Notes: generated from the letters alone by a model not told the origin. Shown: positions 6,409-59,562, counted from the first letter of the stretch. The stretch: 64,000 nucleotides of DNA from an archaeon (GCA_035400625.1 DAOMZT010000001.1:306644-370643), one strand, 5' to 3'. Program-made: numbers and translations.

Positions 6409-8631
6409 ATGTTAAAATCAATAATTTTAGAAAACTGGAAGACACACCAGAACACAAAAGTTTCTTTTGAGAAAGGCACAAACATAATTGTTGGAAAGAT
6501 TGGTGCTGGTAAGTCCAGTATTGTTGATGCTATATGTTATTCTCTTTTTGGCACATTTCCAAGCCTGCAAAACAGAAAGATAACTTTGGCTGAAACAATA
6601 ATGTTTAAGCCAGTAAAAAGAAAAGAAGCAAAGCTAAAGCTTGAGTTTGAGCATGATTCTAAAAACTACAGGGTTGAAAGAGAAATTTTTATTGGAAAAG
6701 TTAATACTGCTAAGCTTTTTTGCGAAGACAAGTTGCTTGTTGGCCCAAAGCAAACAGATGTTAATGAGAGGGTTTCAAACATTCTTGGAATTGACTATGA
6801 TCTTTTTGTAAAAATAGTATATAGCGAACAAAACGAAATTGATTATTTTCTAAAGATACCTCCAAGCAAAAGAAAAGAACAGTTTGATGCTCTTTTTGGT
6901 ATTAACAATTTAGAAAAGATAAAAATAAATTCTCGTTCTCTAAAGGCATATCTTGATGCAGAGTATGGTGCAATTCAAAAATTGATTGCTCAGCTAGAAA
7001 ACCAGCTTTTGTCTTTTAATATTTCTGATACAGAAAAGAATATTCAAGAAAACCAAGAAAAAATAAAGCACTTATTAGAATCTACAAACAATCTCAAGTC
7101 CAGAGAACAAGACCTGAAATCCAAAGTTGAAATTTTAAAAAAGCAAAAAACAGAATTTGATACTCTTAATCAAGAGATAAGAGCAATAGATTATAGAAAA
7201 CAAGAGCTCTCAAAAGAGCTTAGTGTTTTAGAAACACAAAAAACCAATTTCTTTTCGCTTACAAGAGATGTGCTTTTAGAGAAAAAGCAAGATTTACAAA
7301 AGCAGTTAAAAGAAAGCCAAGAGCTAGAAACAAAACTTAAATCAATTGCTTCCCAGAATTTTATCTTGACTAACCAGCTTGAGCAGATCAATAGTTCTCT
7401 TGATGTTTCTTTAGATTTATCCAAAATAAATCTAGAAAAAGAAAAGATTTCGCAAGAAATCAATAGTGCTATCCAAAAACAAGCAATTCTTAATTCCCAA
7501 AAACAAGAGAATCTAAAAGCAGTAGCTGAGCTTGAAAAGGGCTTTTCTAAATGTCCTGTATGTGATTCGCAATTGTCAGAAATTCAGATTTTTGAAAAAC
7601 TAAAATCAAAAAAAGAAACAAATGCAAAAATAACAAATGATATTTTGGCTCTTGATAAATCTTTGTTATCATTAAGAGAAGAATTTAGTTTGCTACAGAA
7701 AAAAGAAAGAAAAGCAAGTGAGCAACATTTGTTAGTTGATAGAAAGCAAAGAATAATTGAAGAAAAGAAAAAGCTTGATGAGCAAGAAAAGGCTCTTGGC
7801 AAGCCAAAAGACATTTCTGCTCTTGAAAAAGAGATAGATGCTATAATTCAAGCAATAGACTACCAAACTAAAAAAGAACAATTGTCTGAAATTATAAAAA
7901 AACAAGAATTTTTCTCTAAGAAGCTTTTAAGCATGAATTATGATGATAATAATTATCTCTCGTTATTAGCAGATCTGAGAAACCAAGAAGAGAAACTAAA
8001 TAACAATAATGTTCAAATATCTTTGATACAAGGAATAATAAAAAATCTAGAAAACACAAAAGCACAATATGAAAAATTATCTTTGAATCTTAAAGAAAAT
8101 CAAAACACAATAACAAAACTAGAAACAAAACAAAAAGATATGGTTTTCTTTTCTCAGGCTCTTGAAAATAGCCAAGAACATCTTCGTAAAGTGCTTGTTG
8201 ATAATATTAACAAGACATTAGAAGTGATTTGGCCAAAGGTCTATCCTTATGGCGATTATCTTTCAGCAAGGCTAAAAGCAGAAAATGATTATGTCTTGGA
8301 AGTTTTGACCTTAGGAAAAGAATGGATAAGAGTTGAAGGGCTTTTATCAGGTGGTGAAAGAACCTGTGCAGCACTAAGCATCAGGGTTGCTATTGCTTTG
8401 TCTTTGACAAAAAATCTTGGCTTGTTAATACTTGATGAGCCAACCCACAATATGGATTCAAAAACCATTTCTATGTTATCCTCAATTCTTGATAAAGAGC
8501 TTCCTGAGCTAGTAGAACAAATATTTATAATAACTCATGACCAAAAGTTATTAGAAACTACAAACTCAAGCAAGTACATAATTGAAAGAGATAAAGAAAA
8601 CGACGGAGTTTCATTTATAAAAGAGGAGTGA
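6409..8631 (+). CDS. rad50: DNA double-strand break repair ATPase Rad50
   Basis: Walker A GKIGAGKSS, a long coiled coil with a CPVC zinc hook, the signature LSGGERTCAALSIRVA, and Walker B LLILDEPTHNMD. ATG at 6409 is preferred over TTG at 6400. Confidence 0.9.
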   Translation: MLKSIILENWKTHQNTKVSFEKGTNIIVGKIGAGKSSIVDAICYSLFGTFPSLQNRKITLAETIMFKPVKRKEAKLKLEFEHDSKNYRVEREIFIGKVNTAKLFCEDKLLVGPKQTDVNERVSNILGIDYDLFVKIVYSEQNEIDYFLKIPPSKRKEQFDALFGINNLEKIKINSRSLKAYLDAEYGAIQKLIAQLENQLLSFNISDTEKNIQENQEKIKHLLESTNNLKSREQDLKSKVEILKKQKTEFDTLNQEIRAIDYRKQELSKELSVLETQKTNFFSLTRDVLLEKKQDLQKQLKESQELETKLKSIASQNFILTNQLEQINSSLDVSLDLSKINLEKEKISQEINSAIQKQAILNSQKQENLKAVAELEKGFSKCPVCDSQLSEIQIFEKLKSKKETNAKITNDILALDKSLLSLREEFSLLQKKERKASEQHLLVDRKQRIIEEKKKLDEQEKALGKPKDISALEKEIDAIIQAIDYQTKKEQLSEIIKKQEFFSKKLLSMNYDDNNYLSLLADLRNQEEKLNNNNVQISLIQGIIKNLENTKAQYEKLSLNLKENQNTITKLETKQKDMVFFSQALENSQEHLRKVLVDNINKTLEVIWPKVYPYGDYLSARLKAENDYVLEVLTLGKEWIRVEGLLSGGERTCAALSIRVAIALSLTKNLGLLILDEPTHNMDSKTISMLSSILDKELPELVEQIFIITHDQKLLETTNSSKYIIERDKENDGVSFIKEE
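8616..8627. repeat. 12-bp direct repeat copy 1 (tataaaagagga) inside the rad50 3' end
   Basis: An exact copy recurs at 9362-9373, inside the 3' end of the next ORF. Confidence 0.5.
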
Positions 8632-8632
8632 T

Positions 8633-9385
8633 ATGCCACCACTGAAAAGACCATCATTGAAACTGTCAGTAAAAAGACAAAGGTTTAAGCCTCAGATTAA
8701 ATTACAAAAATCAATATTAAAAAGGCCAACTTTTAAAGAACAGATTGAATCAATTCCTGGAAGAACCAAACATGAAATATTTGGTTATAAAAAGCCAAGA
8801 AGAAAATTTATTGATAAAACAATTAAAATAAATGAAAAAGAAGTAAGATATGATGAAAAACGCAAATATCTTACTGGGGAACATACAGAAATACACACTC
8901 ACCTTTGTAATCCAAAACTAGCAACAGAATCAACACCAGGCCCCTTTGATTTTCTAGGTTGGGTTGATGATTATATAACAACAAGTGGCAAAAAAAATAG
9001 AGCTGTTGTTTCATCAATTCATTTTGAGAATGGAAAAGAACTTGGAAGAGTCCATGTTGTTTTTAAAAAAGATGCACTAAATAAGCAATTAAGAAGTCAC
9101 ATTTATAATTGTTATTTAGAATTTGCAAAAAAGAATAGAAGACAAATAACACCTTTCGAAAAATTCAATGCTGATTTATTCTTTTATCAAGAAAATGGAA
9201 AAGTAAGCAGATATCTTAATGATATGATAGAAAAAGATTTTGATTTTGGAAAAAGATTAAAAGTTTCTAAAACAAAGGATTTAAGAGAGATTTTCACAGA
9301 TATAGAAAGGAAATGGGGAATAAAGATAAGAGCATATTCTCATCCAGGCCATGCCTTTGACTATAAAAGAGGAACATTTTATTGA
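8633..9385 (+). CDS. hypothetical protein: basic N-terminal tail (MPPLKRPSLK) plus a degenerate JAB/MPN-like H-x-H core; paralog of 31177..31968
   Basis: 250 aa, starting 1 nt after the rad50 stop. It shares with 31177..31968 the MPP.K/R tail, an HTH..P motif, a VxxxxxxNGKxxGxV segment, and a C-terminal GI(K/Q)(I/L)...G(H/Y)xFD. Confidence 0.6.
   Translation: MPPLKRPSLKLSVKRQRFKPQIKLQKSILKRPTFKEQIESIPGRTKHEIFGYKKPRRKFIDKTIKINEKEVRYDEKRKYLTGEHTEIHTHLCNPKLATESTPGPFDFLGWVDDYITTSGKKNRAVVSSIHFENGKELGRVHVVFKKDALNKQLRSHIYNCYLEFAKKNRRQITPFEKFNADLFFYQENGKVSRYLNDMIEKDFDFGKRLKVSKTKDLREIFTDIERKWGIKIRAYSHPGHAFDYKRGTFY
9362..9373. repeat. 12-bp direct repeat copy 2 (tataaaagagga)
   Basis: Exact match to 8616-8627. 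Confidence 0.5.
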
Positions 9386-9401
9386 TTTTTCAAGTTAATA
9401 C

Positions 9402-9410
9402 TTTAAAATA
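9402..9410 (+). promoter_or_regulatory. candidate TATA box for priS (leaderless or near-leaderless)
   Basis: tttaaaata is centred about 26 nt upstream of the ATG at 9432. There is no SD in between. Confidence 0.4.
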
Positions 9411-9431
9411 CTTGTTTAACATATATTATAT

Positions 9432-10685
9432 ATGGCAAGTAATGAAATTTCTGAATTTACTATTTCTTACTTAAGAGATCTTTTCAGAAATTATTATCAG
9501 CATAATCCTGTTACTAGTGCTATTGCGATTGAAAAAAGAGAGGTCGGTATAGGGGATTTTGGTAAAAAGATTAGTGCAAGGCATCTTGCCTTTTCTAACA
9601 ACGCAGGACTAAACAGATTTTTAACAGAAAAAACTCCTTTTTTTATATCTTATTCTACTGCCTATTATAAATATCCAGAAAGGCGACCAATGGAGAATAA
9701 GATTTTAGAAGGCTCAGATATTGTCTACGAGTTTGATGCTGATGATTTTAATCTTCCTTGTAAAGAAGAACACGATATTTGGTTTTGCAAAAGCTGTGAG
9801 GCAAGTGGCAAGGGCCATAAAGATATCTGCCCAGAATGCCAAGGCAAACTTGAAGTTATTGAATGGATTTGCGACAAATGCCTAGGTCATGCAAAATCAG
9901 AAACTCTTCGTTTGATAGATTTTCTAGAAACTGAGTTTAAGCTTGATTCTTCAAGTTTTGTGATTTCTTTTTCTGGTTCTAAGGGCTATCATTTGAGAGT
10001 AACAGATAAAAGCATAATACCGTTATCTAAGTCTTCTCGTCTTCAGATGATGAACTATATCCAAGGCAAAGATTTAGATCTTAGTAAACTTGGCTTTGAA
10101 TATAAGGGAAAACAATGGTTTTGCCCAAGTCCTGACACAAAGAATGGCTGGGCAGGCAAACTAATCACATATCTAAGAAACTACATACAAGAAATGGACG
10201 AAAAAACCCTGAAAAAAGACTTTTCTTATTCAAAAGTAAAGATTAATAAACTGCTAGAGCATAAAGAAGTTATTTTAAATAAGATGTATAATAATATATT
10301 ATGGCATAATTTTACAAGCGAATCTGTAAAGGATGCTAAATTTTGGGAGGATTTATTAGCTATTGCAATTTCTAGGCTTGGTTTTAGAATAGATCCAGCA
10401 TCTTCAAGTGATATCTATAAAATCATGAGAATGCCAGATACCATTCATGGCGGAACCGGGCTTTTATCAACTAAACTAAAAGACAGAGAAGCACTAGAAA
10501 AGTTTGATCCTTTTTTGGATCCTGTTCTTTTTAGGCCTGATAAAGATAGAAATGGAGAAGTGACTAGGCCTGTTCCAAGGTTTAGGTTGCTTGAGCAAGA
10601 GTTTGGTCCTTATAGTCTAGGCGAGAAACTAGAACTCCCAGAATACGTAAGTGTTTATTTATTATTAAAAGGTGTATTAAAATGA
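9432..10685 (+). CDS. priS: DNA primase small (catalytic) subunit PriS
   Basis: Catalytic YEFDADD, the Zn-knuckle cysteines CKSCE..CPECQG..CDKC, and SFSGSKGYHLRV. Confidence 0.9.
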   Translation: MASNEISEFTISYLRDLFRNYYQHNPVTSAIAIEKREVGIGDFGKKISARHLAFSNNAGLNRFLTEKTPFFISYSTAYYKYPERRPMENKILEGSDIVYEFDADDFNLPCKEEHDIWFCKSCEASGKGHKDICPECQGKLEVIEWICDKCLGHAKSETLRLIDFLETEFKLDSSSFVISFSGSKGYHLRVTDKSIIPLSKSSRLQMMNYIQGKDLDLSKLGFEYKGKQWFCPSPDTKNGWAGKLITYLRNYIQEMDEKTLKKDFSYSKVKINKLLEHKEVILNKMYNNILWHNFTSESVKDAKFWEDLLAIAISRLGFRIDPASSSDIYKIMRMPDTIHGGTGLLSTKLKDREALEKFDPFLDPVLFRPDKDRNGEVTRPVPRFRLLEQEFGPYSLGEKLELPEYVSVYLLLKGVLK

Positions 10686-27020: not shown

Positions 27021-27025
27021 TTTAG

Positions 27026-27099
27026 CGGGTTTGGGAGGATTTGAACCCCCGTCTGCAGGTCCGAAGCCAGCTGCACTATCCAGACTATGCTACAAACCC
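27026..27099 (-). tRNA. tRNA-Arg (anticodon TCG), no encoded CCA
   Basis: Hand-folded cloverleaf from GGGTTTGTAGCATAGTCTGGATAGTGCAGCTGGCTTCGGACCTGCAGACGGGGGTTCAAATCCTCCCAAACCCG. It has a 7-bp acceptor stem, a GG in the D loop, the anticodon loop CTTCGGA, and a T loop TTCAAAT. The anticodon stem has one U-U mismatch. Confidence 0.85.
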
Positions 27100-29395: not shown

Positions 29396-31170
29396 GTAGT
29401 AAAGTAATATTTATTTTCTTTTTTTTGTTCTTGGTCTTTTTGTGAGCCTGGCTTGTTTGCTCTTGGTCTTTTAGTCTCAGGATCTTGTCTAAAGGTCATG
29501 TTTTCATTTTTTAAAAAACTATTAAAAGCATCTTGTATGTCAGTAATGCCTTTTACAAAGCCCTTCTCCCCTGCAACACCATCAAACAAAAGCATTCTAT
29601 CAGAGATATAATCTAATAGAAGAAGATCGTGATCAACAACAAATGCACATTTTTCTGTCTTTGTGATAATATTTTTTATGGCTGTAGAAACAACAAGCCT
29701 TAGCTCAACATCCAAGAAAGCACTTGGCTCATCTATCAAGTAGATGTCTGCATTCTTTGATAGACAATAAGCTATTGCAACTTTTTGTAATTCTCCACCA
29801 CTAAGCTCTCCAATTTTTTGATTAAATAAACTTTCTAAATCAAATTGTCTTTTTAGTTCCATAGCAAAGATTTCTTGATCTATTTCTTTTCCGCTAAATA
29901 AATCTCTAACAATCATCTCTTGGTCTAAGTCAATATATTGTGGCTTGTATGATATTTTTAGATTTAGATCAATATTATTCTCTTCTGATTTTTCTAGGCC
30001 AGCAAGAGTTTTGATAAATGTGGTTTTGCCAATTGCATTTGCACCAAGTATTCCGATTACTTCGCCTTTGTTTACTCTTGCTCCTGTTGCTTCAAGCTTG
30101 AAGTTTCCTAATTTTTTAGTAAATGATGGATATTCAAAAAACAAAAGTCTTTTTGTTATGCTTTTGTCTTGTGTGGAGACAAAGGTTATGGCATTAGTCC
30201 TGATTCTGATATTTTCTTCTTTTAAAAAGCCATCTAAAAACTCGTTTATTCCTTTCTTTGTGGTTTTTTTGTTAGAAGAAATACCATATGCTTGTTTCTG
30301 TCCAAAGAACACATGCACAAAGTCGCTCAGGTAATCTAAGATTGCAAGATCGTGTTCTATCATAAGCATAGAGTTTTTTTCATTTATCTTTTCTCTTAGG
30401 ATTTTTGCAATTCTAAACCTTTGCTTGATATCTAAAAACGTAGAATACTCATCAAAAAAATAAAGATTGGCATTTTTTAACAGAGTAGAGGCGATTGCGA
30501 CTCTTTGCAGTTCCCCACCAGAAATTTCTTTTGGTGTTTTTTCAAGTAGCTTTTCAAGCTCTAGTTCTTTTATTACTTGTGCTTTATAATCTTTATCTTT
30601 TGAGATGCCATTTATAAGTTCGCCTATTTTTTTGTTATAGACTTTTGGGATGTCTTCTACCTTTTGTATCTTGTAAGCAATTGTTGTCTTGTTGTCTCTT
30701 AGATCCTCAAAATGCTGTTGTATTGCCTTGCCTCTGAAATACTCAAGCACTTTTTCTTTATCACCCTGTTTAGAGTAATCCCCAAAATTAGGAACTAGAT
30801 TTCCTGACAAAATATTAATGGCTGTTGTTTTTCCAGCACCATTTCTTCCAATAACACCAGTAATAAACCCTTTCTCTATTGTTGGTAAAGAAAAAAGCCT
30901 AAACATGTTTTTCCCATATTGATGAAGCGGGTTGTCTAGTTCCATTCCAATATTAATTATTGATATTGCTTTTTCTGGGCACCTGTTCTGGCAAATACCA
31001 CAACCAGTACATAATGTCTCATCAATAATTGGAAAGATATTTTGTGGCTCAACAATTATTGTTTCTTCGTTCATTCGCACACCTGGACAAAGCCTCTTAC
31101 AAAGATAATTGCAGTTTTTTGGTTGACATTTGTCTTTATCCAGAATTGCGATTCTTATGTTTTTTGCCAT
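29392..31170 (-). CDS. abce1: ABCE1 / RNase L inhibitor homolog (ribosome recycling ATPase)
   Basis: An N-terminal 2x[4Fe-4S] region (CQPKNCNYLCKRLCP, CTGCGICQNRCP) and two ABC cassettes (GRNGAGKTT, GANAIGKTT, 2x SGGELQ). Confidence 0.93.
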   Translation of the reverse strand: MAKNIRIAILDKDKCQPKNCNYLCKRLCPGVRMNEETIIVEPQNIFPIIDETLCTGCGICQNRCPEKAISIINIGMELDNPLHQYGKNMFRLFSLPTIEKGFITGVIGRNGAGKTTAINILSGNLVPNFGDYSKQGDKEKVLEYFRGKAIQQHFEDLRDNKTTIAYKIQKVEDIPKVYNKKIGELINGISKDKDYKAQVIKELELEKLLEKTPKEISGGELQRVAIASTLLKNANLYFFDEYSTFLDIKQRFRIAKILREKINEKNSMLMIEHDLAILDYLSDFVHVFFGQKQAYGISSNKKTTKKGINEFLDGFLKEENIRIRTNAITFVSTQDKSITKRLLFFEYPSFTKKLGNFKLEATGARVNKGEVIGILGANAIGKTTFIKTLAGLEKSEENNIDLNLKISYKPQYIDLDQEMIVRDLFSGKEIDQEIFAMELKRQFDLESLFNQKIGELSGGELQKVAIAYCLSKNADIYLIDEPSAFLDVELRLVVSTAIKNIITKTEKCAFVVDHDLLLLDYISDRMLLFDGVAGEKGFVKGITDIQDAFNSFLKNENMTFRQDPETKRPRANKPGSQKDQEQKKENKYYFTT

Positions 31171-31189
31171 GTTTAATCATTTTCTTATA
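31168..31189. repeat. junction repeat copy X (minus strand: TATAAGAAAATGATTAAACATG)
   Basis: Covers the last codons and stop of ORF 31177..31968, the spacer, and the ATG of abce1. It matches 31966-31991 at 21/22 positions plus one 4-nt indel. Confidence 0.8.
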
Positions 31190-31968
31190 AATTCTATAGT
31201 GTTAGGATCAAATCTGTAACCGTTATATTTGTTTGCTACAAATTTAAGTTGAATCCCTAATAACTCATACATCTCTATTCTGCTTTTATTGCTATTAAAT
31301 AAATGTTTATATTTTAAAAAATTTAATATTTCAATTGGATTGAACAAGCCATTTTCTAAACAAAATACCATAAGTTCAACATTATATTTTGTGTGATTAA
31401 GAATTGGTTTTTCTTTTTCTAAATATTTTCTACCTTCTGCTTTACTTAATAATTCATTTATAAAAACAATTTTTGAAATACTTGCTTGAAAAGTAAATTG
31501 TTGTTCATAAGTCAAATTTTGTTGTTCAAAGATTTTTGATAACTGATTAAAAGTTTTACCTGCCTTTTTTTGAAAATTTTTAAAAGATGTTTCATATTTA
31601 GGGCGTACATGATATTGCACTTGCCCACTAATCTTTTTGCCTTCATTTATATAAATTACATTTGAGTTTTTTGACAAAACCAGATCTGTAATACTTGGCA
31701 TCAAAGAAATAGGGTTTGTTTTTGGATGTGTGTGTGCAAAATAGATTGTGCCACCTTTACTTTCTGTTTTCTTTATATAATTTATAGTTTTTTCTATATC
31801 AAGATATACAGATTTATTTCCTTTATTTTGAGTAACATTTTTCATTTGGCATCTGCTTCTTTTTATAAAAGCATGTTCTAGATGAGGGTTTTCACTAATT
31901 GCTTTTTCTACAACCTTAATTGGTCTTATTCTGGCCCTAGGTCGCACAGTTCTAGGTTTTGGTGGCAT
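31177..31968 (-). CDS. hypothetical protein: basic N-terminal tail (MPPKPRTVRPRARIRP) plus a JAB/MPN+ (JAMM)-like motif
   Basis: FAHTHPKTNPISLMPSITD gives H-x-H ... S-x-x-D with a longer spacer than canonical JAMM. 263 aa. Paralog of 8633..9385. It is packed between rfcL (2-nt gap) and abce1 (6-nt gap). Confidence 0.6.
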   Translation of the reverse strand: MPPKPRTVRPRARIRPIKVVEKAISENPHLEHAFIKRSRCQMKNVTQNKGNKSVYLDIEKTINYIKKTESKGGTIYFAHTHPKTNPISLMPSITDLVLSKNSNVIYINEGKKISGQVQYHVRPKYETSFKNFQKKAGKTFNQLSKIFEQQNLTYEQQFTFQASISKIVFINELLSKAEGRKYLEKEKPILNHTKYNVELMVFCLENGLFNPIEILNFLKYKHLFNSNKSRIEMYELLGIQLKFVANKYNGYRFDPNTIEFIRK

Positions 31969-33206: not shown

Positions 33207-33241
33207 AATATAATATAACTAAAGAAAGTATTAAAATAGCC

Positions 33242-34192
33242 TTAGATTTTTTTATCTTCGTTTTTTGTGTTTTTCAAAACATCTGCAAAGCTTTGTTTAT
33301 TTTTGGAGGCAATTTCAAGAAATTTATTTTTCTTTGTTTCCCATTTCTTTCCTGTTCTTGTGTTTGCAAGTCCTCCTCTTGCTGTTTCTTTTAGTTCTTC
33401 ATCCATTCTTTTTCCTATCTCATCCATGGCGCTTGCAACTTCATCAAATGGGATATAAGATTTGATTCCAGACAATGCCATCTGTGCAGCAATAAAAGCA
33501 ACACCTACACTTGTCGCGTTTCTTTTTCTGCAAGGAACTGAAACAATACCTGCTACAGGATCACAAACAAGGCCAAGCATGTTTTTTAATGCAAGTGCTG
33601 CTGCGTTTTCAACCATCTCTGGGTTAGTGTTGTCTTTGTAAAGAAGATGAATGATTGCTCCTGCTGCCATTGCAACTGCAGAACCACATTCTGCTTGGCA
33701 ACCATGTACTGCCCCAGAGATTGAGGCATTTTTAATAATTGATAGCTCTATTGCTGCAGCTGTTAGAAGTGCATTTTGAATATCTTTCTCAGAACAATTA
33801 TAGTCCTGAGCAACAGCAATGATACAGCCAGGCACTATTCCCGAAGAGCCTGCTGTTGGGCAAGCAATAACAGTTCCCATATTAAGGTTATTTTCAGTAA
33901 TTGCTAATGCAAAAACACAAGCTTTGTGAAGAGTGTTTCCTAAGATCCTTGTTTTCTTGTTGGCCATCTTAATGGAATCAGATGAGAACATCAGGTTCTT
34001 GAATTTATAATGGCCTTTAAGTCCAGAGTTTATTCCTCTTTTAAAGGTATTTATAGAATTATTTAGCTTATTTGAGATTTCTTTATCGCTTCTTTTAAAG
34101 CTAGTTCTTTCATCTTCTTTTACGATTTCTGCAATTGTTGTTTTTCTTTCTTTTGCGAGTTTTACAATATTTCTAAGTATGTACTCTGTCAT
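33242..34192 (-). CDS. sdaAA: L-serine dehydratase (iron-sulfur dependent), alpha subunit
   Basis: ACPTAGSSGIVPG and SGAVHGCQAECGSA motifs. Confidence 0.85.
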   Translation of the reverse strand: MTEYILRNIVKLAKERKTTIAEIVKEDERTSFKRSDKEISNKLNNSINTFKRGINSGLKGHYKFKNLMFSSDSIKMANKKTRILGNTLHKACVFALAITENNLNMGTVIACPTAGSSGIVPGCIIAVAQDYNCSEKDIQNALLTAAAIELSIIKNASISGAVHGCQAECGSAVAMAAGAIIHLLYKDNTNPEMVENAAALALKNMLGLVCDPVAGIVSVPCRKRNATSVGVAFIAAQMALSGIKSYIPFDEVASAMDEIGKRMDEELKETARGGLANTRTGKKWETKKNKFLEIASKNKQSFADVLKNTKNEDKKI

Positions 34193-34605
34193 AATGATGC
34201 AACCTCATTAAATTTAATTCTCCCGCCACCAACAGAGCTACCTCTAAAATATCTTGTTGTGTTTTCCTTGTTTGTTACAGCAAGAAACACAGTGTTTGGG
34301 TGATAATTTTCATTAATATGATGATGCCATTCAATCTTTATTCCTTTTTTATAAGCAAATTCAAAAGAAAAAGGTATTTTTGGGTCTGTTTCTTCAAATC
34401 CCAATAATCCAGCAACTAGCGCACTTTTTGTCATGTGTGCATCCCCTGTATCAGCAAGTGAGTTATATAAAACAATTTTTATTGCTTTGATATCTTTTAC
34501 TTTACTATGCACTTTAAGGCCGATTTTCATTACACCAGCAGTATGAGAACTAGAAGGACCAACAATCTCAGAAGTAACAAGATCAAGCAAGCTAATGTAA
34601 GCCAT
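34189..34605 (-). CDS. sdaAB: L-serine dehydratase, beta subunit
   Basis: MAYISLLDLVTSEIVGPSSSHTAG is the N-terminal signature. ATGA overlap with the alpha subunit. ATG at 34605 is preferred over 34644. Confidence 0.8.
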   Translation of the reverse strand: MAYISLLDLVTSEIVGPSSSHTAGVMKIGLKVHSKVKDIKAIKIVLYNSLADTGDAHMTKSALVAGLLGFEETDPKIPFSFEFAYKKGIKIEWHHHINENYHPNTVFLAVTNKENTTRYFRGSSVGGGRIKFNEVASL

Positions 34606-34772
34606 ATTTATCCAACTCCCAATTTCTATTAATATGATAAACAAAAGATATTATAAATACTTGTTGTGTTTTCTTTTTTAAATATCTATTTATTTTAATT
34701 AATGTTATATTTATAAATAATTATACACATATTTTGATATTAAATAACAAAAATAATTAAAAATTAAAAGAG

Positions 34773-35054
34773 ATGATTATAATGGGAATAATTAAGCCAA
34801 AACCAAAAAGGCCAACAGTAAAAACACAAAATGCGAAATTTACCGCTAGTAATAAAGGAAGACTATTTGCATCTAGCATGGTGGAGAAAACACCAGATGG
34901 GCGCATAAGATTAAGAAAATCCTCACAAAAGGTAACAAAACCAAATTACACAAAATCTGAATTAATTAACATATTAAAATGGGTGGATAATCCAAGAGGT
35001 TATTTTTTAGAAGAAGGAATGACTTTAAAAGATTTAAAAAAAAATAAAAAATAA
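34773..35054 (+). CDS. small basic hypothetical protein (tail GIIKPKPKRPTVK)
   Basis: 93-aa ORF, K-rich at both ends. No recognisable family. Confidence 0.45.
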   Translation: MIIMGIIKPKPKRPTVKTQNAKFTASNKGRLFASSMVEKTPDGRIRLRKSSQKVTKPNYTKSELINILKWVDNPRGYFLEEGMTLKDLKKNKK

Positions 35055-35085
35055 AAACAAAGAGAGTGTAGTAAAAATAAAGGAT

Positions 35086-35634
35086 GTGCGTGATCATTAT
35101 CCTTTAAATGAGTTGGCGAGTGTTTATGGCAAACAAGAAGTTATCAATGCTTATGGAAATATGACAGAAATAATCAAAAAAAGAACACCTAAAGAGATCG
35201 CTGGTGTTTTTGGCGCAAAACCATTGTTAGATTATTTAGTTAAAAACAAAGGCGGATTAAAAGGATTTAGAAAAAGTATGGAAATTAACAAAGTAGGTTC
35301 AAGAGGCATTGCACCAGGTTCATTAGAATCTGTTATAAGATTTGCAGGTGGCTCCCATACAGAAGTTGCTCGTTATTTTAATGGCTATAAAGGCTTAGTT
35401 AAAGTATTTGGGTTTAATGAAGCCTTAAGGAATTATGGGCATAATGTAATTAAAGCAGAAGGAGGAATAAAAGCAGTTATAAAAAAATATCAGCTTAAAG
35501 ATATATTTTCTGGATTAAGTCTTAACCAAAAAAACGCATTATATAGAGAATATGGCCCTGAATTATCAAAGGCATACACAGCATCAGAATTATCAAGAAT
35601 ATTTCCTGAGCGGATTAGAAGATATAGTCAATAA
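35086..35634 (+). CDS. hypothetical repeat protein with about 8-9 h-x-x-[YF]-G motifs (HhH-like?)
   Basis: GTG start. Motifs are LASVYG, VINAYG, IAGVFGAKPLLDYL, VIRFAGG, VARYFNG, LVKVFG, ALRNYG and LYREYG. The gene lies just 5' of pcn. Confidence 0.45.
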   Translation: MRDHYPLNELASVYGKQEVINAYGNMTEIIKKRTPKEIAGVFGAKPLLDYLVKNKGGLKGFRKSMEINKVGSRGIAPGSLESVIRFAGGSHTEVARYFNGYKGLVKVFGFNEALRNYGHNVIKAEGGIKAVIKKYQLKDIFSGLSLNQKNALYREYGPELSKAYTASELSRIFPERIRRYSQ

Positions 35635-36438: not shown

Positions 36439-37215
36439 ATGGCCATCTTAAAACCAAAATTATCTAGAAGAAAAATAAAACCAGCAAAACCAATAATAAT
36501 CAACAAATCACAAGTTTCTAATTTTAGTAAAACACTTTTAAGCAAACCAAAAGAACCATTATTTGAAGGCAAGTATTCCAAAAGCCTAACCAAAAAGATG
36601 CCTAGAAAGAAAATAAAACCAGTAAAACCTGTAATATATAATAAGCCATATCTTTCAGATTACGATACAAGACTTATAAAATTTAAACATGCATTTGAAA
36701 ATAAATATGGTTTTAATATCTTTAAAACAAAAGGTGAAAAACTCCATGTTTTCTTGCCAATGACAGGCATGTCTCCACAAGGTTATTTGTTAAAGGCTTT
36801 TTTTGAACAAACCCTTCCAAAAGCAAGAGTTACTTTTTTAGTTACTCCAAAAAGTACATTAGTTGAGGCAGATCCTAAATTTAGAAGAAAAGCTATAAAT
36901 AATTTAGAGAACCATTTAAGAAGGTCTCTTAATATTCATGATAAATATTTTGTTTGCTTTGATTATATTCAGAAAGGCAGTGTTCAAATAAATATTATGC
37001 AAATCTTGAATAAAATTTATAATAAAGAAGTAAACTATTTAGCAGTAAAATCACCAAGAGACAGGGGAATACCAACCCACATAAAAGAGCCAGATGGTAG
37101 CTCTATAAGGCCACTCCAATCTAAAGCAAAATTTAAAAATATAATACAAGAGCATTATAATGCAGGTATTGAGTTATCCAGAATGAAGAATTTTATTTCA
37201 AAGCTACTAGAATAA
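36439..37215 (+). CDS. hypothetical protein with a duplicated basic N-terminal tail; possible divergent member of the 8633/31177 family
   Basis: 258 aa, starting 9 nt after the pcn stop. The tail motif R(R/K)KIKP(A/V)KP(I/V)I.NK occurs twice. LHVFLPMTGMSPQGY and the C-terminal AGIEL loosely echo its putative paralogs. Confidence 0.55.
   Translation: MAILKPKLSRRKIKPAKPIIINKSQVSNFSKTLLSKPKEPLFEGKYSKSLTKKMPRKKIKPVKPVIYNKPYLSDYDTRLIKFKHAFENKYGFNIFKTKGEKLHVFLPMTGMSPQGYLLKAFFEQTLPKARVTFLVTPKSTLVEADPKFRRKAINNLENHLRRSLNIHDKYFVCFDYIQKGSVQINIMQILNKIYNKEVNYLAVKSPRDRGIPTHIKEPDGSSIRPLQSKAKFKNIIQEHYNAGIELSRMKNFISKLLE
36464..36491. repeat. in-frame internal DNA repeat, copy 1 (basic tail module)
   Basis: ctagaagaaaaataaaaccagcaaaacc versus ctagaaagaaaataaaaccagtaaaacc at 36602-36629. 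Identity is 25/28, offset 138 nt. Confidence 0.8.
36602..36629. repeat. in-frame internal DNA repeat, copy 2 (basic tail module)
   Basis: See 36464-36491. Confidence 0.8.
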
Positions 37216-39146: not shown

Positions 39147-39252
39147 TTATTTCACCATAATCTTCTATTGTAAAAATTAGTCAAATATTTGATTTAAATA
39201 TATAATATATGTTCCAAATTGCTTAAAAACATATTTATGCCTATATATTATT

Positions 39253-55625: not shown

Positions 55626-55916
55626 ATGGATTATATATATGCAGTTTTGTTATTACACAAAGCTAACAAAGAAATAAATGAGGCTAACATAAAATCAGTA
55701 TTAACTTCAGCAGGAGTTTCAGCTGATGATGCAAAGATAAAAGGTCTTGTTGCAACATTAAAGGACATAAACATTGAAGATGCAATTGCAAAGGCATCAG
55801 TTGTAGCAGCAGCTCCAGCAGCAACAGCAACTAGCGAGACAAAGAAAGAAGTCAAAGAAGAGCATGTTGTTACTGAAGAAGCAGCAGCAGAAGGCCTTAG
55901 TGCATTATTTGGTTAA
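55626..55916 (+). CDS. rpl12: 50S ribosomal stalk protein P1 (L12)
   Basis: MDYIYAVLLLH, an A-rich hinge, and the C-terminal EEAAAEGLSALFG. Confidence 0.88.
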   Translation: MDYIYAVLLLHKANKEINEANIKSVLTSAGVSADDAKIKGLVATLKDINIEDAIAKASVVAAAPAATATSETKKEVKEEHVVTEEAAAEGLSALFG

Positions 55917-56028
55917 TTTTAACCAAATATTTTCTTTTTCTTTTTTTAAATTTCAAGAAAAACACATTTTATACTTTTTGATTAACAAAACCATTTATAA
56001 ACTATTTTTTTAATTTATATTATAGTTT

Positions 56029-57585
56029 ATGTCAGATTTTGTAGAACACAGATTTGTTAAGAAAGAAACAATTCAAAAAAGACTTTATCAAGAGCTTTTA
56101 ACAGCACAAGCAATTAAGCAAAGCACTCTTGTTGTTGCCCCAACTGGTTTAGGTAAAACAATCATTGCTGTTCTGTTGATTGCTTATACCTACAACCCAA
56201 AGAAATCAGTAATTCTCTTATCACCTACTAAGCCATTAATATCTCAACATAAAAAAAGCATTATAAAATTCTTGGAGATTCCAGAAGATAAAATTATTCT
56301 TTTGACTGGCGAAACTTCCCAAGAGAAAAGAAAAGATTTCTATGATGGACAAGGCCTAATTATTTGTGCAACACCCCAAACTATACAACATGACTTGGAA
56401 AAAAAACTTCTTGACCCCAAAAACTTTAATCTTATTATATTTGATGAGGCACATAGAGCAGTTGGCAATTACTCATATACTTTTATTTCTCAGTATTTTT
56501 CAGATGATGTTAAAAGATTAGGATTAACTGCCTCTCCTGGGGCTAGCAAAGCAAAGATTCAAGAGGTTGCAGACAACCTTGGCATTTCACATATAGAGAT
56601 AAGAACAGAGCAAGACCTTGATGTTAAAGATTATGTTAACGATATTGAAGTTGATATAAAGTTTTTGGAGCTTGACCCTATCTCAAAAGAAATATCTAAA
56701 ACCATTGATTCTTATATTTTGCAAAAGATAAATCTTTTGCGTAAGCTTGGCTGTCCAATACCAACCAATTATTCCAAAAAACAAATAATTGCTATTCAAG
56801 CTGGTCTTTTTGAGAGAGTAAAGAAGGTAAAGAATAATACTGGTTTTATTGCAATTTCAACAATCGCCTCTGTTCTTAAGTTTCTTCATGCCAAAGAACT
56901 AATTGAAACTCAGGGTTTTTTTGCAACAGAAACTTATCTTTTAAAATTAAAAACAGATAATCTTGAAAAGAAATCAAAAGCACTATCTGCAATTATTAAT
57001 TCATCTGAGTTTTTAGAGGTACTTAAGCTTCTTGAAAAAGCAAAGACAAAGAGATGTGCTAAAGAAACGGCTCTTCTAGAAATGGTTTCAAGCTTTCTGA
57101 AGGAAAACCCAAACTCGCGAATTCTTGTTTTTAACAACTATAGGGATAATGCAAACCATCTTGTAGAGGTGCTTAATCAAACAAGTGGTATAAAAAGCTC
57201 ACGATTTGTTGGACAGGCAACCAAAAGCCTCTCCGATAAAGGATTATCTCAAAAAGATCAATCAAAAATCATTTCTGATTTTCGTGAAGGCATCTATAAT
57301 GTTTTGGTGTGTACTTCTGTTGGCGAAGAGGGTCTTGATATCCCATCAGTTGATTTAGTAGTATTTTACGACGCTGTTGCCTCTGAGATAAGAAATATCC
57401 AGAGGCGTGGAAGAACCGGCCGTTTTAATGTTGGCAAAGTTATATTGCTTCTTAACAAAGACACCATTGACGAAAAATATTATTTTGTTTCCCAAAACAA
57501 AGAAAAGAAAATGAAATCAATTCTTAAAAATTTCTATAAGCCAGAAAGGAAAAAAAGGGTGCAAAAAAAGCTAAGTGATTATTAA
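56029..57585 (+). CDS. hef: Hef/FANCM-type SF2 helicase (helicase half of Hef, separate ORF)
   Basis: APTGLGKT, FDEAHRAVGNY, LGLTASPG, an inserted helical domain, and QRRGRTGR. Length is 518 aa. Confidence 0.85.
   Translation: MSDFVEHRFVKKETIQKRLYQELLTAQAIKQSTLVVAPTGLGKTIIAVLLIAYTYNPKKSVILLSPTKPLISQHKKSIIKFLEIPEDKIILLTGETSQEKRKDFYDGQGLIICATPQTIQHDLEKKLLDPKNFNLIIFDEAHRAVGNYSYTFISQYFSDDVKRLGLTASPGASKAKIQEVADNLGISHIEIRTEQDLDVKDYVNDIEVDIKFLELDPISKEISKTIDSYILQKINLLRKLGCPIPTNYSKKQIIAIQAGLFERVKKVKNNTGFIAISTIASVLKFLHAKELIETQGFFATETYLLKLKTDNLEKKSKALSAIINSSEFLEVLKLLEKAKTKRCAKETALLEMVSSFLKENPNSRILVFNNYRDNANHLVEVLNQTSGIKSSRFVGQATKSLSDKGLSQKDQSKIISDFREGIYNVLVCTSVGEEGLDIPSVDLVVFYDAVASEIRNIQRRGRTGRFNVGKVILLLNKDTIDEKYYFVSQNKEKKMKSILKNFYKPERKKRVQKKLSDY
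57572..57585. repeat. 14-bp perfect direct repeat copy 1 (taagtgattattaa)
   Basis: Covers the last codons and TAA of the hef helicase ORF. It recurs exactly at 58198-58211. Confidence 0.9.
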
Positions 57586-57646
57586 ATCCATTTATAAGCT
57601 TAACTTATCTGGTATTATTTAACATAAGTTTAAATAAGGTGAGGAA

Positions 57647-57916
57647 ATGTTAGAAAAAACAGTAAATGTAAATCTCAAAATATCTGACTATTCTAATAGA
57701 GTGTTAGGAGTAGTAAAAGAGAAATATGGCTTTAAGGACAAATCTCAGGCTCTCGATAAAATAATGGATATGTATGGGGAAGAGTTTGTAGAAAAAGAGG
57801 TTAGAGAAGATGTTATTTTAGAAGTGATTGCAGAAGTTGAAAAAATGAAAATGCAAAAACAAAAGCCAATGTCTAAAAGTGAATTAAATAAGTTTTTTGA
57901 AAATGCTAAAAAGTAA
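57647..57916 (+). CDS. putative antitoxin (DUF2683-like small protein)
   Basis: VNLKISDYSNRVLGVVKEKYGFKDKSQALDKIM resembles archaeal antitoxin-like proteins. GGTGAGG lies upstream. Its stop lies 9 nt before the toxin ATG. Confidence 0.5.
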   Translation: MLEKTVNVNLKISDYSNRVLGVVKEKYGFKDKSQALDKIMDMYGEEFVEKEVREDVILEVIAEVEKMKMQKQKPMSKSELNKFFENAKK

Positions 57917-57925
57917 TGTGGTAAA

Positions 57926-58204
57926 ATGACATTTGCTTCTAATCTATCTAATGAATTAAAAGAAACAATTAAGAAATTGTATTCTAAAGACAAAAAACTT
58001 TTTTTAGAATTACAAAAAAAGATAAATCTAATTATCTCTTGTGATAAAGAAACTATCAATCATTATAAAAATTTAAGATACGGTCTTTCAGATTACAAAA
58101 GAGTGCATGTTGGAAAATCTATTGTTCTTTTATTTTCAGTAGATGTGCAGAATAATACAGTCTATTTTGTAAAATTTGATCATCACGATAAAATTTATAA
58201 GTGA
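57926..58204 (+). CDS. relE: RelE/ParE-family type II toxin
   Basis: 92 aa. YKNLRYGLSDYKRVHVGKSIVLLFSVDVQNNTVYFVKFDHHDKIY follows the RelE pattern (L.G....R.RVG.YR..Y.........I....HR..VY). Confidence 0.65.
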   Translation: MTFASNLSNELKETIKKLYSKDKKLFLELQKKINLIISCDKETINHYKNLRYGLSDYKRVHVGKSIVLLFSVDVQNNTVYFVKFDHHDKIYK

Positions 58205-58211
58205 TTATTAA
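58198..58211. repeat. 14-bp perfect direct repeat copy 2 (taagtgattattaa)
   Basis: Covers the last codon and TGA of the toxin, the spacer, and the first nt of the hef nuclease ATG. Confidence 0.9.
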
Positions 58212-58879
58212 TGACTCAAAAAATAAAAATTATTTGTGACACTCGTGAAAGAGTTAGTCAAATTTATCAAGAGCTAAAAGCTCTAACAAACGATTCCTTT
58301 GAAGTAGAGGTTGTTGTAGAACAGTTATCTCTTGGCGACTACCAGCTAAGCGATCAGGTCTTGATTGAAAGAAAAACAATAGCTGATCTTGAAAGTTCAA
58401 TTATTGATGGCAGGATTTTCTCACAGCTTGATAATCTTTCAAGCAAGGTAAATAAGCCAGGCCTAATTATTGAAGGGGTTATTAATTTTTCAGAAAGTAA
58501 CACTCGAATCAACAACAAGTCCTTGATTGGCCTTATCACTGCAATTGGTCTTAACTATCGTGTCCCGATCTTTTTTACAAGGAACCAAAAAGAAACCGCT
58601 CTTTTTCTTTATGTGATTGCAAAGCGTGAGCAGTTTGGTGTCAAGACAGAAATCAAACATCGCTTCAGCAAGAGCAGGATGTCCTTTTCTGATCAGCAAT
58701 TATTTATCTTGGAGTCTTTTCCAGATATTGGCCCAACACTTGCTAAAGCTCTTCTTAAAAAATTTAAAAATATCAGAAACATCGCCAATGCTACAGTTAA
58801 GGAGCTTCAAGAAGTGGAGCAGATGGGTCCAAAGAAAGCAGAAAAGATGCATTATCTTTTCTTAAGAGATTTTATTTAG
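58211..58879 (+). CDS. hef: ERCC4/XPF-type nuclease with C-terminal (HhH)2 (nuclease half of Hef)
   Basis: ICDTRE, the GDYQLSDQVLIERKTIADLESSIIDGR ERCC4 signature, and the C-terminal FPDIGPTLAKALL...MGPKKAEKM. Confidence 0.88.
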   Translation: MTQKIKIICDTRERVSQIYQELKALTNDSFEVEVVVEQLSLGDYQLSDQVLIERKTIADLESSIIDGRIFSQLDNLSSKVNKPGLIIEGVINFSESNTRINNKSLIGLITAIGLNYRVPIFFTRNQKETALFLYVIAKREQFGVKTEIKHRFSKSRMSFSDQQLFILESFPDIGPTLAKALLKKFKNIRNIANATVKELQEVEQMGPKKAEKMHYLFLRDFI

Positions 58880-58884
58880 TTTTT
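58852..58884. repeat. 33-bp direct repeat copy 1 (ttatcttttcttaagagattttatttagttttt)
   Basis: Covers the last 8 codons and TAG of the hef nuclease plus 5 nt. Copy 2 at 59530-59562 differs at one position. Confidence 0.9.
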
Positions 58885-58935
58885 GCTATACTTATTTAAA
58901 TAATTGCAATTATATGATTTTTGAGGTTTTCATAC

Positions 58936-59517
58936 ATGAATAAAATGAAATCAATAATGTTAATATCTTGTTTTATATTATTTATTATCGCTCCTGTTTA
59001 TGCATCAGCAATGCGTGGTGAAGCAATAAATAATCAAACTAAAGAGTGTGCCACTTATTTTCAAGGTGATGAATGCATGGACTGTGCGTTATCAGATCCC
59101 TGGATTGAACGAAAACACGGAGAACCTTGCCCAGAAGGATACAGAGAAATTAAAGATATGCAAGCACCTTCTATTTGTACGCCTATTCAAAATCAGTTTT
59201 GCTGTGAGGAATATCATTCTGGGGCAAGTGGCAATTGTACAAATCTTGTTATAAACAATATTACAAAAGAATGTGCATTTGTTTTGGACATTAATAGTTG
59301 TGAGAAATTGCCAAAAAATTGGTTGCCAGTAGCATCTACTGAATATAAAAATTGTCCAATAAGTTTAGAATATAAATGGTTAGATGATGTGTTAGTGTGT
59401 GATACCAAATCTACAAATTACAATAAATTCTATATGTTTGTTGTGATTGCAATTATAATAATCTTAATAATGGGAGTTTGTCTTAAAAAATATAAAAAGG
59501 TTTTATGTCGTCAATAA
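58936..59517 (+). CDS. Cys-rich secreted protein with a C-terminal TM anchor and basic tail
   Basis: Signal peptide MNKMKSIMLISCFILFIIAPVYA, about 14 Cys in the ectodomain, and the C-terminus FYMFVVIAIIIILIMGVCLKKYKK. ATG at 58936 is preferred over TTG at 58921. Confidence 0.6.
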   Translation: MNKMKSIMLISCFILFIIAPVYASAMRGEAINNQTKECATYFQGDECMDCALSDPWIERKHGEPCPEGYREIKDMQAPSICTPIQNQFCCEEYHSGASGNCTNLVINNITKECAFVLDINSCEKLPKNWLPVASTEYKNCPISLEYKWLDDVLVCDTKSTNYNKFYMFVVIAIIIILIMGVCLKKYKKVLCRQ

Positions 59518-59529
59518 GCAAATAAGATT

Positions 59530-59562
59530 TTATCTTTTCTTAAGAGATTTTACTTAGTTTTT
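59530..59562. repeat. 33-bp direct repeat copy 2
   Basis: ttatcttttcttaagagattttacttagttttt, ending 1 nt before the stop of the convergent ORF 59563..59916. Confidence 0.9.

What the first reader, a model, noticed from the sequence alone, without database searches (positions are those of the whole stretch)
8616..59562. Recurrent architecture: accessory ORFs between core genes each end in an echo of the upstream core gene's 3' end or junction
Four independent loci show the same geometry of [core gene ... repeat][accessory ORF(s) ... repeat][next gene].
- TA pair after the hef helicase: 14/14 bp.
- Cys-rich gene after the hef nuclease: 32/33 bp.
- JAMM-like ORF between rfcL and abce1: 21/22 bp plus a 4-nt indel, including the stop, the spacer and the downstream ATG.
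- Its paralog after rad50: 12/12 bp.
In two cases the two copies are read in different frames (rfcL YKKIME* versus IRK*; rad50 FIKEE* versus DYKRGTFY*). The similarity is therefore at the DNA level rather than the protein level. This points to one insertion mechanism that duplicates gene junctions and lets the newcomer inherit the downstream gene's translation-initiation context. I do not know of a described element that does this without a recombinase nearby.
Basis: partly seen in the sequence, partly recalled or inferred. Interest (0 to 1): 0.85.

Follow-up and report, generated by a model that had tools for sequence, protein, structure and literature searches.

The report
Gene insertions flanked by duplicated gene ends

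Summary
The window is from an Iainarchaeota-like DPANN MAG (93% coding, median spacer 13 nt). All four repeats exist at the stated coordinates. All four ORF sets are accessory: each is present or absent among relatives at exactly the same junction.

- **Toxin-antitoxin (TA) pair, real target duplication.** The closest relative (L102) has an empty site carrying exactly one copy of the 14-mer TAAGTGATTATTAA, with the helicase stop overlapping the nuclease ATG.
- **Cys-rich gene, real target duplication.** It is absent from all 18 relatives examined. Its 32/33-bp repeat duplicates the last 9 codons plus stop of the Hef nuclease.
- **rfcL/ORF263, probable.** Gapped echo p≈0.0014 per pair, with an 8-11 nt stop-spacer-ATG repeat at the boundaries.
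- **rad50/ORF250, not supported.** The 12-mer is at chance level and is not collinear with the empty sites.
- **A fifth case.** ORF 4117-5058, found only in the window, has a 7-9 bp duplication.

No recombinase, terminal inverted repeats or viral carrier were found.

Best reading: insertions that duplicate their target survive because the copy keeps both neighbours' signals intact, and the repeats later allow clean deletion. The closest known phenomenon is "insertion with long, variable target duplication" in bacteria. The insertion mechanism is still unknown. Interest is moderate.

The parts
57572..57585 (+). Left copy of the 14-bp target duplication: last four codons (L S D Y) and TAA stop of the Hef helicase ORF (56029-57585).
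   Evidence: In the empty site of L102 this sequence occurs once and aligns to both window copies.
57586..58197 (+). TA cassette insert. It has its own TATA-like box (57591) and SD (AAGGTGAGG). Antitoxin ORF is 57647-57916. The YafQ/RelE-family toxin ORF is 57926-58204, and its last 7 nt lie in the right repeat.
   Evidence: Toxin matches TIGR00053 with E=1.8e-16 over its full length, below the curated cutoff; ParE_toxin match is weak. Cassette present in L007-9 and L015-16; absent in L102, L010-12 and L022.
58198..58211 (+). Right copy of the 14-bp duplication: the third base of the toxin's Tyr codon, its Lys codon and TGA stop, the GTGAT Shine-Dalgarno motif, the spacer, and the A of the Hef nuclease ATG (58211).
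   Evidence: GTGAT/GGTGA/AGTGA are 9-17-fold enriched upstream of start codons in this window.
58852..58884 (+). Left copy of the 33-bp duplication: last 9 codons (Y L F L R D F I) plus TAG stop plus 5 nt of the Hef nuclease (58211-58879).
   Evidence: The C-terminus matches the conserved ...YLFxRxF end of 18 homologs.
58885..59529 (+). Cys-rich gene cassette: TATA-like TTTAAATA at 58895 and ORF 58936-59517. The product has a signal peptide, is Cys-rich and carries a C-terminal membrane anchor.
   Evidence: No tblastn match in any of the 18 relatives. The gap from the nuclease to S8e is 396-687 bp in the nine relatives measured, against 1140 bp here. Only two distant homologs (42-43% identity) exist elsewhere, in other genomic contexts.
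59530..59562 (+). Right copy of the 33-bp duplication (32/33 identical). It is a non-coding relic of the Hef nuclease 3' end (YLFLRDFT*) and abuts the stop codon (59563-59565) of the convergent ORF117.
   Evidence: In most relatives examined the convergent ORF ends within a few nt of the Hef nuclease stop or overlaps it.
31177..31968 (-). ORF263, an HxH...PSxxD (JAMM-like) ORF specific to this lineage, lying between rfcL and abce1. The boundary repeat is TAAACATG(C/G)CA (plus-strand CATGTTTA at 31168 and 31966).
   Evidence: Present in L095, L089-91 and L094; absent in L092, L087, L088 and L093. Gapped echo p=0.0014. Family has only 6 clusters among 1.84e9 representative proteins.
8633..9385 (+). 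ORF250, between rad50 and the small primase subunit. The 12-mer lies at 8616-8627 and 9362-9373. The ORF is accessory, but the repeat is not supported as a target duplication.
   Evidence: Present in L096 and L099; absent in L097 and L098. The empty sites share only 1-4 nt with the boundaries, and the 12-mer is not collinear with them. p=0.02 per pair.
4029..5218 (-). A 1181-bp insertion found only in the window carries ORF 4117-5058, flanked by TTAGATAGC (4029-4037) and TTAGATAAC (5210-5218). The repeat is the last two codons plus stop of ORF 5210-5725.
   Evidence: Absent in L097, L098 and L099, whose single copy ATCTAA is followed directly by the conserved downstream promoter.

Best explanation
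These are gene-sized insertions that arrived together with a duplication of the target sequence. The genome has almost no intergenic DNA.

**How the pattern arises**
1. Stop codons, ribosome-binding sites and start codons of neighbouring genes overlap or abut. An insertion between two needed genes is therefore tolerated only if the junction sequence ends up on both sides of the newcomer.
2. The upstream gene then keeps its C-terminus and stop. The downstream gene keeps its Shine-Dalgarno motif and start.
3. Both copies stay under selection, so the 'echo' persists for a long time.
4. The direct repeats later serve as substrates for clean repeat-mediated deletion. This gives the patchy presence/absence among relatives.

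**Shown**
- Duplication of 14 bp (TA pair) and 33 bp (Cys-rich gene), with a single copy in the empty sites.
- Precise loss of the TA pair in L102.
- Recent gain of the Cys-rich gene and of ORF 4117-5058.

**Inferred**
- The selection filter.
- The insertion chemistry. Candidates are a staggered break with fill-in, or replicative template switching; the first is the kind of model proposed for 'insertion with long target duplication'.
- That the rfcL/ORF263 echo is an aged example of the same process.

The rad50 12-mer is most likely coincidence.
For: **Empty sites**
- L102 (Hef nuclease 90% aa, 83% nt identity) has the junction ...TTAAGTGATTATTAATGCC. L102 positions 852-865 align to both window copies, an overlap of exactly 14 nt.
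- L102 and all the other relatives examined lack the Cys-rich gene. In the nine whose flank was inspected, a convergent ORF follows the nuclease, in most of them within a few nt of its stop.

**History of the TA pair**
- The cassette's left end is homologous in the window, L008, L007 and L009, and the host tree nests empty L102 beside the window. The TA pair is therefore ancestral, and L102 lost it precisely between the repeats.

**Signals and packing**
- The repeat contains the nuclease's SD: GTGAT-type motifs are 9-19-fold enriched upstream of start codons.
- Packing is extreme: 93% coding, median spacer 13 nt, and 7 of 9 convergent pairs overlapping or within 2 nt.

**Cassette properties**
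- Both cassettes carry their own TATA-like box.
- Neither has terminal inverted repeats.
- No recombinase domain was found in the 60 window ORFs scanned.

- Nine accessory units, defined only by absence in relatives, have higher flank-to-flank similarity than 31 core genes (median 28 vs 19, Mann-Whitney p=0.002).
- A fifth, unlisted insertion has a 7-9 bp duplication.

**Precedent**
- PMC2853133.
Against: - The insertion step itself is not observed, and no enzyme is identified.
- Only two cases have long, unambiguous duplications. Several other whole-gene indels in relatives show <=6 nt overlap or none. Two apparent long overlaps turned out to be shared promoter motifs.
- Within the window, the total number of flank repeats >=11 nt equals the chance expectation (6 observed, 6.2 expected).
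- The 33-bp duplication is longer than needed merely to keep the nuclease intact.
Confidence: 0.6

Rival explanations
1. Campbell-type, reversible cassette exchange. A cassette excised as a circle by recombination between its flanking repeats carries one repeat copy. Because that copy is a conserved gene end, the circle can re-integrate by short-homology recombination into the empty site of a related cell. Gene ends act as attachment sites and host recombination proteins do the work.
For: - Precise excision is inferred for L102.
- The same cassettes always occupy the same junction in different lineages.
- Parsimony for ORF263 is close: 3 gains against 4 losses, with the window nested among three successive empty relatives.
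- Variable repeat length is natural for homology-driven crossover.
- The single mismatch in the 33-mer could be a donor/recipient difference.
Against: - The divergence of TA, ORF250 and ORF263 from their relatives' copies broadly tracks that of the flanking genes, and the TA cassette ends are most similar between host sister lineages. That fits vertical descent.
- No relative carries the Cys-rich gene at this site, so no donor is known.
- No circular or viral copy was found.
- 14 bp is very short for homologous integration.
- This model does not explain the first insertion.
Confidence: 0.15
2. Remnants of site-specific integrative elements. An integrase-encoding element targeted the 3' end of the gene and brought a replacement end (att duplication). 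It later decayed to a single cargo gene.
For: - A 33-bp identity segment that restores the 3' end of the target gene is typical of attL/attR of elements integrating into gene 3' ends. PMC2853133 discusses this class, and a relative (L092) has an ORF inserted next to a tRNA gene.
Against: - No integrase domain in 60 scanned ORFs of the window.
- The insert is only 645 bp, is species-specific and has a near-perfect repeat, which leaves little time for the rest of an element to be deleted cleanly.
- Repeat lengths differ between sites.
- No homologs on viral contigs.
Confidence: 0.1
3. There is no common process. The ORFs are ancestral genes being lost piecemeal in a shrinking genome, and the short echoes are chance plus convergent signals (Lys/Glu-rich A-rich gene ends, TGA-containing SD motifs, similar stop-spacer-ATG contexts).
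For: - This holds for the rad50 12-mer.
- It holds partly for TAAACATG: 1.2% of gene pairs share >=5 nt immediately upstream of the ATG.
- AAGTGAT occurs as an SD motif before unrelated genes.
- There is no overall excess of repeats >=11 nt.
- ORF250, ORF263 and the TA pair look vertically inherited, with 2-4 losses each.
Against: - It cannot explain a 32/33 match. The longest match among 2,556 null pairs is 15.
- It cannot explain the exact single-copy 14-mer in the empty site.
- It cannot explain the absence of the Cys-rich gene from all 18 relatives and of ORF 4117-5058 from the three relatives covering its locus, which marks both as gains.
Confidence: 0.15

Closest known systems
[quoted passage not shown] 2000, Gene 259:99; Furuta, Abe & Kobayashi 2010, PMC2853133)
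   Same: - A gene-sized insert is present in one genome and absent from the syntenic site of a relative.
- It is flanked by direct repeats that are single-copy in the empty site.
- Repeat lengths vary, and some overlap the 3' end of a neighbouring gene.
- There is no transposase, integrase or terminal inverted repeat.
- The mechanism is unknown.
   Different: - It was described in bacteria and for restriction-modification genes. Here the host is a DPANN archaeon and the cargo is a RelE/YafQ-type TA pair, a Cys-rich membrane protein and other ORFs.
- Only the 33-bp repeat passes their >30 bp criterion. The others are 7-14 bp.
- Here the duplicated segment is a multifunctional gene junction (stop/SD/start), which suggests a selective reason for the geometry.
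Mobile type II toxin-antitoxin modules (Makarova et al. 2009, PMC2701414)
   Same: [quoted passage not shown]
   Different: That work documents the patchy distribution and recent indels, but in the passages read it describes no target duplication and no insertion mechanism. Here the duplication and the empty site are resolved to the nucleotide.
DNA transposons / MITEs with target-site duplication
   Same: Direct repeats of target sequence flank the insert, and the empty site carries one copy.
   Different: There are no terminal inverted repeats, no transposase and no second copies in the window. The duplication length is not fixed (7-9, 14, 33 bp) and the cargo is unrelated between sites.
Integrase-mediated integration into gene or tRNA 3' ends (attL/attR)
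   Same: The duplicated identity segment restores the 3' end of the target gene (Cys-rich locus).
   Different: No integrase was found, the insert is a single 645-bp gene cassette, and the repeats at other sites are much shorter.

Membership tests
Insertion with long/variable target duplication | The insert is absent from the syntenic site of a related genome. | tested here: met
   - TA pair: absent in L102, L010-12 and L022.
- Cys-rich gene: absent in all 18 relatives.
- ORF 4117-5058: absent in L097-99.

Insertion with long/variable target duplication | The flanking direct repeats correspond to a single-copy sequence at the empty site. | tested here: met
   - TA pair: L102 positions 852-865 align to both window copies.
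- Cys-rich gene: one copy of the Hef nuclease 3' end in L102 and the other relatives.
- rad50/ORF250: not met.
Insertion with long/variable target duplication | Repeat longer than 30 bp (criterion of Furuta et al. 2010). | tested here: inconclusive
   Met by the 33-bp repeat only. The others are 14, 8-11 and 7-9 bp.
Insertion with long/variable target duplication | No mobility gene or other mobile element in or next to the insert. | tested here: met
   No integrase or transposase domain in 60 window ORFs scanned. No terminal inverted repeats.
Insertion with long/variable target duplication | The cargo is a restriction-modification system. | tested here: not met
   The cargo is a YafQ/RelE-like TA pair and a Cys-rich ORF with no family match. 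The published class may simply be broader than restriction-modification genes.
DNA transposon / IS / MITE | Terminal inverted repeats and a fixed-length target-site duplication. | tested here: not met
   No terminal inverted repeats at the cassette ends. Duplication lengths are 7-9, 14 and 33 bp.
DNA transposon / IS / MITE | Transposase present in cis or elsewhere, and multiple copies in the genome. | tested here: inconclusive
   Neither was found in the 64-kb window. The rest of the genome could not be searched.
Site-specific integrative element | A tyrosine or serine integrase associated with the att repeats. | tested here: not met
   No such domain in the window. No relatives on viral contigs. 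An integrase acting in trans from elsewhere in the genome cannot be excluded.
Integron gene cassette | An attC hairpin site at the cassette end, and an integron integrase. | tested here: not met
   No conserved inverted-repeat site is shared by the cassette ends, and no integrase was found.
Type II toxin-antitoxin (RelE/YafQ/ParE superfamily) | Toxin homology, with a small upstream partner gene in the same operon. | tested here: met
   - Toxin matches TIGR00053 (YafQ family) with E=1.8e-16 over 5-92 of 92 profile positions, below the curated cutoff.
- Toxin also matches ParE_toxin with E=7.7e-4.
- An 89-aa partner ORF lies 9 nt upstream and has no family match.
- Activity was not tested.
JAMM/MPN+ metalloprotease (ORF263, ORF250) | MPN fold with an E...HxH...S-x-x-D zinc site. 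| tested here: inconclusive
   - The HTH(P)...PSxxD / SPxD motif is conserved in both families.
- There is no Pfam or PDB sequence match.
- The desampylase match is faint, E=0.0095.
- The AlphaFold single-sequence model is unusable, pLDDT 42.5.
Free-standing homing endonuclease gene | An HNH, GIY-YIG, LAGLIDADG or PD-(D/E)XK nuclease domain in the inserted ORF. | tested here: not met
   No such domain in any inserted ORF.

The most novel reading that the evidence does not exclude
DPANN archaea of this clade might run a recombinase-free, or host-recombinase-driven, reversible cassette system. In it, duplicated gene-junction sequences of 7-33 bp would act as attachment sites. Self-contained single-gene cassettes (own promoter, no mobility gene) could then be excised as circles and re-inserted at the same junction between essential genes in related cells. 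This would be an 'integron without integrase', providing gene flux in genomes that have no intergenic space.
Probability: 0.12. Interest if true: 0.8.

Novelty: new member of a known kind. Interest (0 to 1): 0.45.

Why it matters
DPANN archaea have tiny, densely packed genomes, yet they differ in gene content between close relatives, and how genes get in and out is poorly documented. This locus gives nucleotide-level examples of both directions.
- Gain: a duplication preserves the neighbours' stop, ribosome-binding and start signals.
- Loss: deletion occurs exactly between the resulting repeats.

It extends to archaea, and to non-restriction-modification cargo, a class of insertion known from bacterial genome comparisons whose mechanism is unresolved. 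It also suggests a simple selective reason why such duplications cluster at gene junctions in compact genomes. It is not evidence for a new mobile element or enzyme.

Tried and rejected
- **Assembly artefact.** Rejected: both long repeats are identical in 13 independently fetched loci of the species (2 from one contig), and the 33-mer has an internal mismatch, unlike a k-mer join.
- **Terminal inverted repeats or hairpins at cassette ends.** None found.
- **Recombinase in the window.** None among the 60 ORFs scanned.
- **Viral or plasmid carrier.** The Cys-rich protein, ORF 4117-5058 and the toxin have no relatives on IMG/VR contigs. All 22 contigs read that carry the exact Cys-rich protein show the same context in the 7 places returned.
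- **Repeats flanking distant Cys-rich homologs (L100, L101).** None found.
- **Apparent 19-nt and 22-nt duplications** at two other accessory blocks (34773-35634, and the serine dehydratase pair 33242-34644). Rejected: these are similarity between TATA/initiator motifs of unrelated promoters.
- **An 18-nt overlap at an insertion in L009** that reuses the enolase start (14/18 identical). Left as suggestive only.
- **Recent re-insertion of the TA pair** as the reason for the perfect 14/14 match. Rejected: the outgroup L015 also ends Y-K-TGA, so the window state is ancestral and L007-9 are derived.
- **Toxin-nuclease fusion in some strains.** This is a gene-calling artefact in which TGA is read as sense.
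- **Structure prediction of ORF263.** Confidence too low to use.
- **Pandey & Gerdes 2005.** Could not be read.

Full report
**Source and layout.**
- The window matches contig JAKQTP010000138.1 of MAG GCA_029563035.1. Its relatives are labelled Iainarchaeum, ainarchaeum or Diapherotrites.
- GC is 31%. About 93% is coding, the median spacer between co-directional genes is 13 nt, and 7 of 9 convergent pairs overlap or lie within 2 nt.
- The loci are:
  - rad50 6400-8631, ORF250 8633-9385, primase small subunit 9432-10685;
  - rfcL 33206-31971, ORF263 31968-31177, abce1 31170-29392 (minus strand);
  - Hef helicase 56029-57585, antitoxin 57647-57916, toxin 57926-58204, Hef nuclease 58211-58879, Cys-rich ORF 58936-59517, convergent ORF117 59916-59563, S8e 60020-60415.

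**Observation.**
- The null was 2,556 non-adjacent gene-end pairs from the same window. An exact match of >=11 nt occurs in 2.7% of pairs, >=12 in 0.9% and >=14 in 0.12%, and the maximum is 15.
- With about 147 adjacent or next-adjacent pairs to choose from, an 11-mer and a 12-mer are expected by chance.
- In a flank-versus-flank scan of every gene, 6 repeats of >=11 nt were seen and 6.2 were expected.
- Gapped alignment scores give p=0.0014 for rfcL/ORF263, 0.004 for helicase/toxin and 0.02 for rad50/ORF250 per pair.
- The 33-mer and the 14-mer are identical in 13 independently fetched loci of the species, 2 of them from one contig.

**Comparative test.** Relatives were retrieved for all three regions: for Hef, for rfcL, for the primase. 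All four ORF sets are polymorphic at exactly the same junction.
- The TA pair is present in L007-9 and L015-16. It is absent in L102, L010-12 and L022. A DUF5680 ORF sits in the same slot in L017-20 and L023.
- The Cys-rich gene has no match in any of the 18 relatives. In the nine inspected, the flank carries only a convergent ORF, in most of them ending within a few nt of the nuclease stop.
- ORF263 is present in L095, L089-91 and L094. It is absent in L092, L087, L088 and L093.
- ORF250 is present in L096 and L099 and absent in L097 and L098.

**The two clear cases.**
- L102 is the closest relative (nuclease 90% aa, 83% nt identity). Its helicase ends ...TTAAGTGATTATTAATGCC, with the TAA stop overlapping the nuclease ATG.
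- L102 positions 600-865 align to the window up to 57585. Positions 852-1095 align from 58198 onward. That is the signature of a target duplication.
- The 33-mer duplicates the conserved C-terminus of the nuclease plus its stop. The second copy is a relic lying exactly where the nuclease end should abut ORF117.
- Both inserts carry their own TATA-like box and lack terminal inverted repeats.
- The toxin matches the YafQ/RelE family, E=1.8e-16.

**History.**
- The TA cassette's left end is homologous in the window, L008, L007 and L009, and the outgroup L015 shares the Y-K-TGA toxin end.
- On the host tree, empty L102 is sister to the window, and L010/L011 are sister to L007/L009.
- The TA pair is therefore old, and it was lost at least three times. 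In L102 the loss left exactly one repeat copy, which indicates deletion between the repeats.
- The repeat has persisted because both copies are constrained. The left copy encodes the helicase C-terminus. The right copy holds the toxin stop and the nuclease's GTGAT Shine-Dalgarno motif; such motifs are 9-19-fold enriched before start codons here.
- For ORF263 the tree requires 4 losses or 3 gains. The family is tiny, with 6 clusters among 1.84e9 representative proteins, and it is always found at this junction, which favours ancestry with repeated loss.
- The Cys-rich gene and ORF 4117-5058 are gains in the window lineage.

**The two weaker cases.**
- At ORF263 the boundaries carry TAAACATG(C/G)CA on both sides: rfcL stop, 2-nt spacer, ATG and the next codon. 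The empty sites have this once. Together with the 11-mer, this would be a roughly 29-nt duplication with a 4-nt indel. That is probable but aged.
- At ORF250 the empty sites (L097, L098) join the rad50 stop directly to the conserved primase promoter. Only 1-4 nt are shared at the boundaries, and the 12-mer lies inside the ORF's last codons and is not collinear with the empty site. It is conserved as 13/13 in L096, but that follows from coding constraint on both genes.

**Generality.**
- Nine accessory units, defined purely by absence in relatives, score higher for flank-to-flank similarity than 31 core genes (median 28 vs 19, p=0.002).
- Other indels show <=6 nt of overlap.
- The cargo is functionally unrelated across sites: a TA pair, a membrane protein, HxH ORFs, an ORF with a kinase-like Gly-rich loop (by eye; no family match), a GNAT acetyltransferase, serine dehydratase and a DUF5680 ORF.
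- No recombinase and no viral carrier was found.

**Comparison with known systems.**
[quoted passage not shown] It involves no mobility genes, its repeats sometimes overlap a gene 3' end, and its mechanism is unknown (PMC2853133; reviewed in PMC3874152).
- TA modules are known to be inserted into or deleted from syntenic operons (PMC2701414).
- I found no report of this insertion type in archaea.
- The case is therefore a new member of a known kind. It adds one point: in a genome without spacers, the duplicated segment is a multifunctional junction. That offers a selective explanation for the recurrent geometry, and the repeats explain the clean losses.

**Verdict.** The insertion chemistry is unresolved. 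Interest is moderate.

Noticed in passing
window 56029-58879; L007-L023, L102: Hef is split into separate helicase and nuclease ORFs throughout this clade. In the empty state the stop and start overlap or nearly abut (TAATG in L102, TAATTATG in L010). The split point is an insertion hot spot that holds a TA pair, a DUF5680 ORF or nothing, depending on lineage.
   Followed up: yes
L092:11376-12305; window 27025-27099 (tRNA-Arg tcg, minus strand): Relative L092 carries a 309-aa ORF with no family match. It is inserted between the CCA-adding enzyme gene and the 3' end of the tRNA-Arg gene. The window lacks it.
   Followed up: partly
window 9415-9431, 33207-33225, 56010-56028, 39235-39252: A shared ATATATTATAT-like motif lies directly upstream of the ATG of unrelated genes (primase, rfcL, Hef helicase, tRNase Z). 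It may be an initiator or leaderless-transcript context. It makes unrelated promoter regions look like duplications.
   Followed up: partly
window 8633, 31968, 59916, 60973, 40255, 5058; L096:9766: Many lineage-specific or accessory ORFs begin with M-P/A-(P/K) followed by a strongly basic Arg/Lys-rich tail of 20-60 residues. None has a family match.
   Followed up: no
L097:8417-9274, L098:8384-9256, L099:8400-9272; L096:9766-10398; L092:3228-3758: Further whole-gene indels occur between tightly packed core genes in relatives:
- a 285-290-aa ORF with a kinase-like Gly-rich loop, between PAC2 and HerA;
- a 210-aa basic ORF after HerA;
- a GNAT acetyltransferase after PCNA.
The serine dehydratase pair (window 33242-34644) is also variable.
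   Followed up: partly
L103:1991-2944, L105:1991-2944: Some public pipelines call the toxin and the Hef nuclease as one 317-aa protein, and they also extend S8e. The DNA is identical to the window and still has the TGA, so the gene caller read TGA as sense. This is not a real fusion.
   Followed up: yes
window 36464-36541 and 36602-36679: A 78-nt direct repeat (71% identical, spacing 138 nt) lies inside accessory ORF 36439-37215. It probably encodes an internal peptide repeat.
   Followed up: no
window 59563-59916 and the equivalent position in L007-L015: The ORF convergent to the Hef nuclease is present at the same position in all relatives but is almost unrecognisably divergent: 108-192 aa, with at best 32% identity to L102.
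   Followed up: partly
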